Part shown: piece by piece, positions 13,804-14,213 of the stretch
Numbering within the stretch: position 1 is the stretch's first letter
How the letters are laid out: the number at the start of each line of letters is the position of its first letter
Assembly (NCBI GenBank): GCA_963699155.1
Contig: OY969414.1
Span: 1,029,327-1,093,326, forward strand
Length of the DNA: 64,000 nt
Origin: an uncultured Chlamydiales bacterium
Lineage (GTDB): Bacteria; Chlamydiota; Chlamydiia; Chlamydiales; JAAKFR01
Direction: 5' to 3'
The notes under the pieces: model-generated
Told to the model about the DNA's origin: nothing
What the model saw: the letters and a program-made list of their open reading frames with translations, nothing else
The model's database searches: none
Translations under genes and position numbers: made by a program

Positions 13804-13832
13804 TTGCCATAGATTTTAAAAAATAATATAAT
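13804..13832 (+). promoter_or_regulatory. sigma70-like promoter upstream of the NHLP precursor gene
   Basis: TTGCCA (13804-13809), 17-nt spacer, TATAAT (13827-13832). It lies about 30 nt upstream of the ATG at 13863 in an AT-rich intergenic region. Confidence 0.45.
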
Positions 13833-13862
13833 AAATATTATTAAAACTTTGGGGAAAAAACT

Positions 13863-14213
13863 ATGGTACAAGAAACACAAAAGAGCGCAACTTTAGAAAA
13901 TCAGATGGCGCGATTGATTGCCAGGGCTGCTTATGATGAGAAGTTTAAAAAAGAGCTCTTGAGTAATCCGGGCGAAACTTTAAAGAAATCCAATATCGCT
14001 GTGAAACCCAATGTAGAGGTTCGCTTTATTGAGGATAGTGATAAAGTAGTCTACATTAAAATTCCTAGAAAAGATGAGTTAGATCTCTCTGATGCAGAAA
14101 TTGCACAGATTACCGGTGGACGCGAAAGCGGGCCCTTTGATCTTAGCCCAAAATTGGTACTGAAAATTTTTGAAGGTTTGAGATCAGTCGCTCAATGGTT
14201 TAAAAATTTATGA
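13863..14213 (+). CDS. NHLP (nitrile-hydratase-like leader peptide) family RiPP/bacteriocin precursor with double-glycine cleavage motif
   Basis: The leader ARLIARAAYDEKFKKELLSNPGETLKKSNIAVKPNVEVRFIEDSDKVVYIKIPRKDELDLSDAEIAQITGG matches the remembered NHLP consensus (AKAWxDxxFKxxLLxNP...VxVVE...LVLP...LSEEELEQVAGG). A 30-aa amphipathic core follows. Confidence 0.7.
   Translation: MVQETQKSATLENQMARLIARAAYDEKFKKELLSNPGETLKKSNIAVKPNVEVRFIEDSDKVVYIKIPRKDELDLSDAEIAQITGGRESGPFDLSPKLVLKIFEGLRSVAQWFKNL

What the first reader, a model, noticed from the sequence alone, without database searches (positions are those of the whole stretch)
13804..14213. Orphan NHLP-type RiPP/bacteriocin precursor with double-glycine leader in a Chlamydiae-like genome
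The 116-aa ORF has a leader that tracks the nitrile-hydratase-like leader peptide consensus nearly position by position: ARAAYDEKFKKELLSNPGETLKK...VEVRFIEDSDKVVYIKIPRK...LSDAEIAQITGG. The leader ends in the classical GG cleavage site.
The predicted 30-aa core is RESGPFDLSPKLVLKIFEGLRSVAQWFKNL. It is amphipathic and cationic and has no Cys or Thr, so it would be an unmodified or lightly modified linear peptide.
The gene has a textbook promoter (TTGCCA-17-TATAAT). No C39-peptidase ABC exporter, cyclodehydratase, rSAM enzyme or lanthionine synthetase lies within the window.
A secreted peptide of this class in an intracellular bacterium raises the question of its target: competing symbionts, or host or organelle membranes.
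Basis: partly seen in the sequence, partly recalled or inferred. Interest (0 to 1): 0.72.

Follow-up and report, generated by a model that had tools for sequence, protein, structure and literature searches.

The report
Lone NHLP-type peptide precursor gene
A small gene in an uncultured chlamydia-like bacterium encodes a genuine member of a known family of secreted-peptide precursors, but it sits alone without the enzymes or exporter that normally process such peptides, so it is an ordinary new family member in an unusual place, and whether it works is unknown.

Summary
ORF 13863..14213 (+, 116 aa) passes the curated NHLP leader model (TIGR03793: 60.1 bits, cutoff 50.9, E 1.4e-16, full model length). 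The match ends exactly at G85-G86. The -12/-8/-7/-4 positions (L, E, I, I) fit the double-glycine leader pattern.

The 30-aa core has no detectable homologue among 1.84 billion representative proteins. It has no Cys or Thr and a net charge of +2. Its last 21 residues form a strongly amphipathic predicted helix. The promoter-like site TTGCCA-17-TATAAT is present.

The 64-kb window holds no C39/PCAT exporter, HlyD, radical SAM enzyme, YcaO or lanthionine synthetase, and no second NHLP gene.

The host is chlamydial. Its closest TilS relative is an uncultured Chlamydiales MAG, and four DUF720 genes lie in the window. The gene lies in a variable island between lptG and tilS, next to an LRR-NEL E3 ligase, 10 nt upstream of tilS-ftsH. 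Its GC content is atypically low (38.7% against 48.5% for coding sequence), and it is absent from the same site in the closest relative. This points to a solo horizontal acquisition.

Processing and secretion are inferred, not shown. The rest of the genome could not be searched for an exporter. RiPP clusters in environmental Chlamydiae were already reported in 2022. Verdict: a new member of a known kind, of modest interest.

The parts
13804..13832 (+). sigma-70/66-type promoter-like site TTGCCA-17 nt-TATAAT
   Evidence: 11 of 12 consensus positions, the best site in 13400..15400; sequence read. A consensus match only, with no expression data.
13851..13855 (+). Shine-Dalgarno-like GGGGA, 7 nt before the ATG
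   Evidence: read directly from the sequence; inference
13863..14213 (+). 116-aa NHLP-family precursor ORF (stop codon included)
   Evidence: TIGR03793 60.1 bits, above cutoff 50.9; only hit in the window; identical protein on a 2,399,326-bp NCBI/ENA contig and on a Logan contig
13863..14120 (+). leader, residues 1-86, ending ...LSDAEIAQITGG
   Evidence: model 4-77/77 maps to residues 13-86; of the ten invariant or near-invariant family columns, nine are kept and one is substituted (N44 for G). AlphaFold helices 2-42, pLDDT 92-97 for residues 11-50, and helix 77-84 just before GG; the best fold match is 8tb1, a proteusin precursor; the family profile hits nitrile hydratase alpha chains and two solved NHLP leaders.
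14121..14210 (+). predicted 30-aa core RESGPFDLSPKLVLKIFEGLRSVAQWFKNL
   Evidence: charge +2; residues 10-30 have hydrophobic moment 0.58, shuffle fraction 0.0027; helix 96-115, pLDDT about 80-84; no homologue of the core among 1.84 billion representatives
14164..14209 (+). weak AT-rich hairpin within the 3' end of the ORF, with no T-run
   Evidence: inverted repeat, 19-nt arms, 79% complementary; -20.3 kcal/mol, z = -1.97, 9 of 200 shuffles as good. Not significant; listed for completeness.
14224..15249 (+). tilS (tRNA-Ile lysidine synthetase), same strand, starting 10 nt after the NHLP stop; probably co-transcribed
   Evidence: PF01171 ATP_bind_3; 61% identical to the TilS of an uncultured Chlamydiales MAG; no terminator-like site in between
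15306..18056 (+). ftsH, the next gene on the same strand
   Evidence: AAA, AAA_lid_3, Peptidase_M41; the same tilS-ftsH pair occurs in L002
9114..13706 (+). upstream part of the variable island between lptG and tilS: a 687-aa coiled-coil protein and an 820-aa LRR-NEL E3 ligase
   Evidence: (NEL 105.5 bits, LRR_8), (L002 carries unrelated genes at this position; GC3 40-42% against 51-55% for tilS/ftsH)

Best explanation
The ORF is an intact, single-copy gene for a precursor peptide of the NHLP (nitrile-hydratase-like leader peptide) family. It was probably acquired horizontally on its own and inserted in a variable island directly upstream of tilS-ftsH in an uncultured Chlamydiales genome.

Shown: family membership of the 86-residue leader; the Gly-Gly end with hydrophobic residues at -4, -7 and -12; a unique 30-residue core predicted to form a cationic amphipathic helix; a strong promoter-like site; and the absence of any processing, modification or export gene within 13.8 kb upstream and 49.8 kb downstream.

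Inferred: the gene is transcribed from the 13804 promoter, possibly together with tilS-ftsH. If the genome encodes a C39-peptidase ABC exporter (with HlyD- and TolC-type partners) elsewhere, that exporter cleaves after G86 and releases the 30-aa peptide. The peptide would then act as a linear membrane-active or signalling peptide, in the manner of a class II bacteriocin or microcin. Family membership is near certain. The processing-and-secretion step is the weak link, and the confidence given below is for the whole chain.
For: TIGR03793 scores above its curated cutoff over the full model, ending at GG. 1011 phmmer relatives all align to the leader only, which is the leader-conserved, core-hypervariable pattern that defines the family. 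Nine of the ten invariant or near-invariant family columns are retained. The best fold match is the NMR structure of a proteusin precursor, 8tb1 (33% identity, probability 0.97), and the family profile hits NHase alpha chains. A predicted helix at 77-84 abuts GG, and L-12, E-8, I-7 and I-4 are in place. The core helix at 96-115 is amphipathic. The promoter matches 11 of 12 positions. Haft et al. 2010 state that NHLP precursors can lie far from their modification and export genes, and that their GG region resembles class II bacteriocin leaders (PMC2887384). Environmental Chlamydiae are reported to carry RiPP clusters (PMC9666466).
Against: The window contains no exporter, peptidase, modifying enzyme, immunity-like gene or paralogue. 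By contrast, all three related NHLP genes seen on contigs with 10 kb of flank lie beside OEP/HlyD/PCAT genes, LanM genes or arrays of paralogues. The gene is a singleton with no close homologue anywhere, so no selection test is possible. Two well-conserved leader positions are substituted. No expression data exist. The rest of the 2.4-Mb genome could not be examined.
Confidence: 0.45

Rival explanations
1. It is a stranded precursor. The gene is a real NHLP-family member that arrived by horizontal transfer without its exporter or enzymes. It is still intact because it arrived recently, but it is not processed at GG and has no bacteriocin-like function: it is either neutral cargo or a small cytoplasmic protein.
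For: GC is 38.7% and GC3 is 34%, lower than 99.9% and 97% respectively of equal-length coding windows in this region. The gene is absent from the syntenic lptG...tilS-ftsH site of the closest relative and from 80 tilS neighbourhoods. It is solo, unlike the three relatives seen with enough flank. There is no machinery in 64 kb. The conserved Trp and Gly positions are substituted.
Against: The reading frame is intact over the whole model. The GG motif and the -4/-7/-12 residues are perfect. A strong promoter-like site and a Shine-Dalgarno-like sequence are present. Distant placement from the machinery is documented for this family (PMC2887384).
Confidence: 0.35
2. It is a modified proteusin-type RiPP. 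The core is altered by enzymes encoded elsewhere (for example a radical SAM epimerase, or a methyltransferase or hydroxylase) before GG cleavage, so the mature product is not a plain linear L-peptide.
For: The closest solved structure is a proteusin precursor. There is a weak sub-threshold match to the PoyD-type epimerase model's leader-like region (TIGR04517, E 0.086; not meaningful on its own). RiPP-like clusters whose best MIBiG match is polytheonamide are reported in chlamydial MAGs.
Against: No radical SAM enzyme or other tailoring enzyme lies in the window. Nothing in the core sequence argues for modification.
Confidence: 0.1
3. It is a repurposed host- or organelle-directed factor. The protein or its amphipathic C-terminus is delivered into the host cell, for example by type III secretion, as part of the effector island in which it lies. 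It does not use the bacteriocin export route.
For: The gene sits immediately downstream of an LRR-NEL E3 ligase. A USP-type deubiquitinase lies 5 kb downstream. The region between lptG and tilS differs between relatives.
Against: The evidence is purely positional. No secretion signal can be tested with these tools. The leader keeps the features needed for C39 recognition, which a repurposed protein need not retain.
Confidence: 0.08
4. It is a chance ORF or a mis-called gene in an AT-rich leader region of tilS.
For: The region is AT-rich and short, and Pfam NHase_alpha scores below threshold.
Against: TIGR03793 gives E 1.4e-16 above its curated cutoff. There are 1011 homologues at E <= 1e-3. 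The structure is predicted confidently (mean pLDDT 83.8).
Confidence: 0.01

Closest known systems
NHLP leader peptide family RiPP precursors (TIGR03793; Haft, Basu & Mitchell 2010, PMC2887384)
   Same: An ~85-residue leader homologous to the nitrile hydratase alpha subunit but lacking the active site. A Gly-Gly end (position 85-86 here; the family average is 83). A short hypervariable core (30 aa here; the family average is about 26).
   Different: It is single-copy and solo. No three-gene ABC export cluster, TOMM, LanM or radical SAM partner lies within 64 kb. The core lacks Cys and Thr. The host is a chlamydial lineage. The gene abuts tilS-ftsH.
Proteusins (polytheonamide/landornamide-type NHLP precursors; solved precursor 8tb1)
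   Same: The leader fold and sequence match (33% identity to 8tb1).
   Different: No epimerase or other tailoring gene is nearby, and the core is unrelated.
Class II (unmodified) double-glycine bacteriocins and class II microcins exported by PCATs
   Same: The LSxxE[LI]xxIxGG motif, and a linear, cationic, amphipathic and probably unmodified core.
   Different: The leader is 86 residues rather than 15-30. No adjacent PCAT, accessory protein or immunity gene.
NHLP-type bacteriocin type 1 secretion systems of Legionella (LB2SS/LB3SS; PMC6959600)
   Same: A precedent for NHLP-linked export systems in amoeba-associated intracellular bacteria.
   Different: There the exporter is what was found; here only the putative substrate is seen.
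RiPP-like clusters catalogued in environmental Chlamydiae (Dharamshi et al. 2022, PMC9666466)
   Same: Chlamydial genomes with RiPP loci, some with the polytheonamide cluster as best MIBiG hit.
   Different: Those are cluster-level antiSMASH calls in other lineages. The precursor here has no detectable close homologue.

Membership tests
NHLP leader peptide family (TIGR03793) | Scores above the curated cutoff of the family model over its full length | tested here: met
   60.1 bits against 50.9; residues 13-86 map to model 4-77/77
NHLP leader peptide family (TIGR03793) | Homology to nitrile hydratase alpha without the metal-binding active-site region | tested here: met
   The family profile including this protein hits NHase alpha chains at E 1e-30 to 1e-17. 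Pfam NHase_alpha aligns only to model positions 34-89 of 184. The protein has no Cys at all.
NHLP leader peptide family (TIGR03793) | Gly-Gly cleavage motif at the exact end of the conserved region | tested here: met
   G85-G86; the model match ends at residue 86
NHLP leader peptide family (TIGR03793) | Short hypervariable core after GG | tested here: met
   The core is 30 aa. All 1011 relatives align to the leader only.
NHLP leader peptide family (TIGR03793) | Core rich in modifiable Cys/Ser/Thr (typical, not obligatory) | tested here: not met
   0 Cys, 0 Thr, 3 Ser. Many relatives also lack Cys.
NHLP leader peptide family (TIGR03793) | Genome co-occurrence or clustering with the HlyD / C39-ABC / ABC export set (TIGR03794/03796/03797) | not testable with these tools
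   Absent from the 64-kb window. The source genome is not in the searchable genome collection.
NHLP leader peptide family (TIGR03793) | Paralogous copies with a shared leader (frequent, not obligatory) | tested here: not met
   It is the only NHLP or double-glycine ORF in the window. Genome-wide status is unknown.
Proteusins | NHLP precursor accompanied by a radical SAM epimerase or other tailoring enzymes | tested here: not met
   No radical SAM or tailoring enzyme in the window. Not testable genome-wide.
Class II double-glycine bacteriocins/microcins | Double-glycine leader consensus (hydrophobic at -4, -7, -12; acidic at -8; GG) | tested here: met
   I-4, I-7, E-8, L-12, G-2, G-1
Class II double-glycine bacteriocins/microcins | Short leader (15-30 aa) with an adjacent PCAT, accessory and immunity genes | tested here: not met
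   The leader is 86 aa. The neighbours are an NEL E3 ligase gene and tilS.

The most novel reading that the evidence does not exclude
An obligate intracellular chlamydia has captured a solo NHLP precursor and wired it as the first cistron of the essential tilS-ftsH operon, inside an effector island. The 30-aa amphipathic peptide would be produced without the canonical clustered machinery. It would be aimed at co-infecting bacteria or at host or organelle membranes, which would make it a RiPP-type leader reused in a host-symbiont conflict.
Probability: 0.1. Interest if true: 0.6.

Novelty: new member of a known kind. Interest (0 to 1): 0.3.

Why it matters
If the peptide is made and released, it would be a concrete, synthesizable candidate for how environmental chlamydiae interact with competing endosymbionts or with their host. 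That question was raised, but left without candidate molecules, in the 2022 survey of chlamydial biosynthetic clusters (PMC9666466). As it stands, the gene is what NCBI's standard annotation model would already label an 'NHLP leader peptide family RiPP precursor'. Its main value is as an example of a precursor gene stranded away from any visible machinery.

Tried and rejected
1. I searched for close relatives of the protein. The word-indexed search of 5.8 billion clusters found only the protein itself. Exhaustive phmmer over 1.84 billion representatives found only leader-level relatives at 45% identity or less. A scan of GTDB representative genomes found nothing. No selection or synteny test on the gene itself is therefore possible.

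2. I asked whether the gene is conserved upstream of tilS. 80 tilS loci, including 6 or more chlamydial ones, have no NHLP by tblastn or HMM.

3. I looked for insertion scars. An 11-nt imperfect direct repeat flanks a 510-bp segment (13715/14225), but this is at chance level for a 1-kb region by my estimate. By eye, the window's -35 region resembles the tilS upstream region of L002, but the local alignment was not significant (23 of 500 shuffles scored as high). Both leads were dropped.

4. I tested for a terminator or attenuator between the NHLP gene and tilS. There is only a weak AT-rich hairpin (z = -1.97) and no terminator-like site.

5. I checked for an RNA-element explanation of the region. 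There are no Rfam or tRNA hits in the window.

6. I considered using a PCAT from L083 as a query to fish for a protein from the same 2,399,326-bp contig. I rejected this: a chlamydial PCAT would be buried among very many PCAT clusters, so the costly search was unlikely to give an answer.

Full report
**1. Observation**

The window has an ORF at 13863..14213 on the + strand. It encodes the 116-aa protein MVQETQKSATLENQMARLIARAAYDEKFKKELLSNPGETLKKSNIAVKPNVEVRFIEDSDKVVYIKIPRKDELDLSDAEIAQITGG|RESGPFDLSPKLVLKIFEGLRSVAQWFKNL. Upstream lie TTGCCA (13804..13809), a 17-nt spacer and TATAAT (13827..13832). This matches 11 of 12 consensus positions and is the best promoter-like site within 13400..15400. 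A GGGGA sits 7 nt before the ATG.

NCBIfam TIGR03793 (leader_NHLP) scores 60.1 bits against a curated cutoff of 50.9 (E 1.4e-16). Residues 13-86 cover model positions 4-77 of 77, so the match ends exactly at G85-G86. Pfam's NHase_alpha model is below threshold (19.4 against 27.2).

**2. Family evidence**

Exhaustive phmmer over 1.84 billion representative proteins gave 1011 hits at E <= 1e-3. All of them match the leader. The only hit above 50% identity is the protein itself.

I aligned the protein with 47 single-domain relatives. The family consensus is VAxAWxDExFKxRLLxxPxxVLKExGxxVPxGxxxxVVENTDxVxHLxLPxKPxxELSDxELxxVAGG, followed by unalignable cores. The window protein keeps L32, D25, F28, P36, L40, E57, P68, G85 and G86. 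It replaces the near-invariant Gly with N44 and the conserved Trp with A23.

The family profile hits nitrile hydratase alpha chains (E 1e-30 to 1e-17) and two solved 'NHLP leader peptide family natural product' chains, 8tb1 and 9cjx.

The AlphaFold model has mean pLDDT 83.8. It shows helices at 2-42 (pLDDT 92-97 for residues 11-50), an extended middle, a helix at 77-84 abutting GG, and a core helix at 96-115. Its best PDB fold match is 8tb1, the NMR structure of a proteusin precursor (33% identity, probability 0.97).

Leader positions -12, -8, -7, -4, -2 and -1 are L, E, I, I, G and G. This is the double-glycine pattern that Haft et al. note is shared between NHLP leaders and class II bacteriocin leaders (PMC2887384).

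**3. The core**

- It has 30 aa, no Cys, no Thr, three Ser and net charge +2.
- Residues 10-30 (PKLVLKIFEGLRSVAQWFKNL) have charge +3 and an Eisenberg hydrophobic moment of 0.58. Only 0.27% of shuffles reach that value.
- No homologue of the core was detected.
- A Cys-free core is not unusual among the relatives retrieved, so it does not by itself imply an unmodified product.

**4. Context**

Pfam and NCBIfam scans of nearly all ORFs of at least 150 aa found no Peptidase_C39, HlyD, radical SAM, YcaO or LanM/LanC protein. The only ABC system is a ZnuABC-type importer at 60.4-63.1 kb. No second NHLP gene and no other double-glycine ORF exists in the window.

The local gene order is lptF/lptG (6866..9063, -), a 687-aa coiled-coil protein (9114..11177), an 820-aa LRR-NEL E3 ligase (11244..13706), the NHLP gene, tilS (14224..15249, starting 10 nt after the NHLP stop), ftsH (15306..18056), asd, and a DUF6119-USP protein on the opposite strand. 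No terminator-like site separates the NHLP gene from tilS, and only a weak hairpin is present. Co-transcription with tilS-ftsH is therefore likely, but it is inferred.

**5. Host and origin**

The identical protein is recorded on a 2,399,326-bp NCBI/ENA contig and on a Logan contig from run ERR11523669. The Logan contig differs from the window at 1 of 10,805 bases. The source genome is not among the GTDB representatives.

The closest TilS (61% identity) is in an uncultured Chlamydiales MAG (L002). The next-closest are Chlamydiia- and Verrucomicrobia-labelled MAGs at about 35-43%. The window also holds four tandem DUF720 genes; from my own knowledge, this family is restricted to chlamydiae.

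L002 has the same lptG ... tilS-ftsH frame but unrelated genes in between, and no NHLP gene.

The NHLP gene has 38.7% GC (GC3 34%), against a mean of 48.5% (sd 3.7) for equal-length coding windows. Only 0.14% of those windows are as low in GC, and 2.8% as low in GC3. Together with the variable-island position, this supports a lineage-specific, probably horizontal, solo acquisition. No convincing insertion scar was found.

**6. Comparison with relatives' contexts**

Three related NHLP genes were seen with 10 kb of flank:
- One lies next to OEP-HlyD-PCAT-ABC genes (L083).
- One lies next to LanM-HlyD-PCAT-ABC genes (L085).
- One lies within an array of 10 or more NHLP paralogues with LanM fragments and an OEP gene (L088).

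Shorter contigs show tandem NHLP genes. The solo state here is therefore atypical. However, Haft et al. explicitly describe precursors located far from their machinery, and species without identified modifying enzymes.

**7. Mechanism**

The best-supported reading is an intact NHLP precursor. If a C39-peptidase ABC exporter exists elsewhere in the genome, the precursor would be cleaved after G86, and its 30-aa amphipathic, mildly cationic core would be exported as a linear membrane-active or signalling peptide.

Shown: family membership, motif integrity, core properties, expression signals at the consensus level, and absence of partners in 64 kb.

Inferred: transcription, cleavage, export and activity.

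The main rival is a recently acquired but stranded precursor with no cognate machinery. Lesser rivals are a modified proteusin with distant enzymes and a repurposed host-directed factor. The chance-ORF reading is refuted.

**8. Novelty**

The family has been known since 2010, and the gene passes the very model NCBI uses to name such proteins. RiPP clusters in environmental Chlamydiae were catalogued in 2022. That catalogue includes 'RiPP-like' clusters whose best MIBiG hit is the NHLP-type polytheonamide cluster (PMC9666466). NHLP-type C39 exporters have been described in Legionella, another amoeba-associated intracellular bacterium (PMC6959600). A full-text search for 'NHLP' together with 'Chlamydiae' returned nothing, so this particular combination has not been discussed explicitly in the papers searched.

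Verdict: a new member of a known kind, in an unusual genomic and organismal setting. Interest is modest until the genome is checked for an exporter.

Noticed in passing
window 11244..13706 (+): An 820-aa protein with leucine-rich repeats and a C-terminal NEL domain (PF14496, 105.5 bits). This is an IpaH/SspH-type bacterial E3 ubiquitin ligase, directly upstream of the NHLP gene in a chlamydial genome.
   Followed up: partly
window 19101..22427 (-): A 1108-aa protein combining DUF6119 with a UCH/USP-type ubiquitin hydrolase domain, i.e. a eukaryote-like deubiquitinase.
   Followed up: no
window 9114..11177 (+): A 687-aa protein with glycine-rich repeat ends and a long central coiled coil. It has no Pfam hit and only weak SMC-like coiled-coil matches. 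It lies in the same low-GC3 variable island.
   Followed up: no
window 40042..48340 (-): A near-complete arginine succinyltransferase (AST) pathway cluster: AstB, an aldehyde dehydrogenase, AstA, a class-III aminotransferase and an M20 peptidase. This is an unexpected catabolic pathway for a chlamydial genome.
   Followed up: no
window 31571..33952 (-): Four tandem paralogues of DUF720 (PF05302). They support a chlamydial origin for the window.
   Followed up: no
window 51223..52235 (-): Two overlapping ORFs carrying HTH_21 and integrase-core (rve) domains. This looks like a frameshifted or programmed-frameshift IS3-type transposase.
   Followed up: no
window 54597..59006 (+): Three consecutive SPFH/Band 7 genes. 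The first is fused to an ArsP-type permease domain.
   Followed up: no
proteins P0002-P0034 and P0021: Most of the best-scoring relatives of the leader are 150-400-aa proteins with two to four tandem NHLP leader domains before a single GG and core. One 2147-aa protein has eight matching stretches. This multi-leader architecture was not examined further.
   Followed up: no
L002 7955..9598 (-): At the position that the island occupies in the window, the closest relative carries a 547-aa protein made of roughly 46-aa tandem repeats (FxFVTLPQTFYHYVLAPIG...).
   Followed up: no
window 17953..18056: The mechanical asd ORF overlaps the end of ftsH. The gene call on the Logan contig starts at window 18025, giving a 368-aa product, and is probably the true start.
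   Followed up: no
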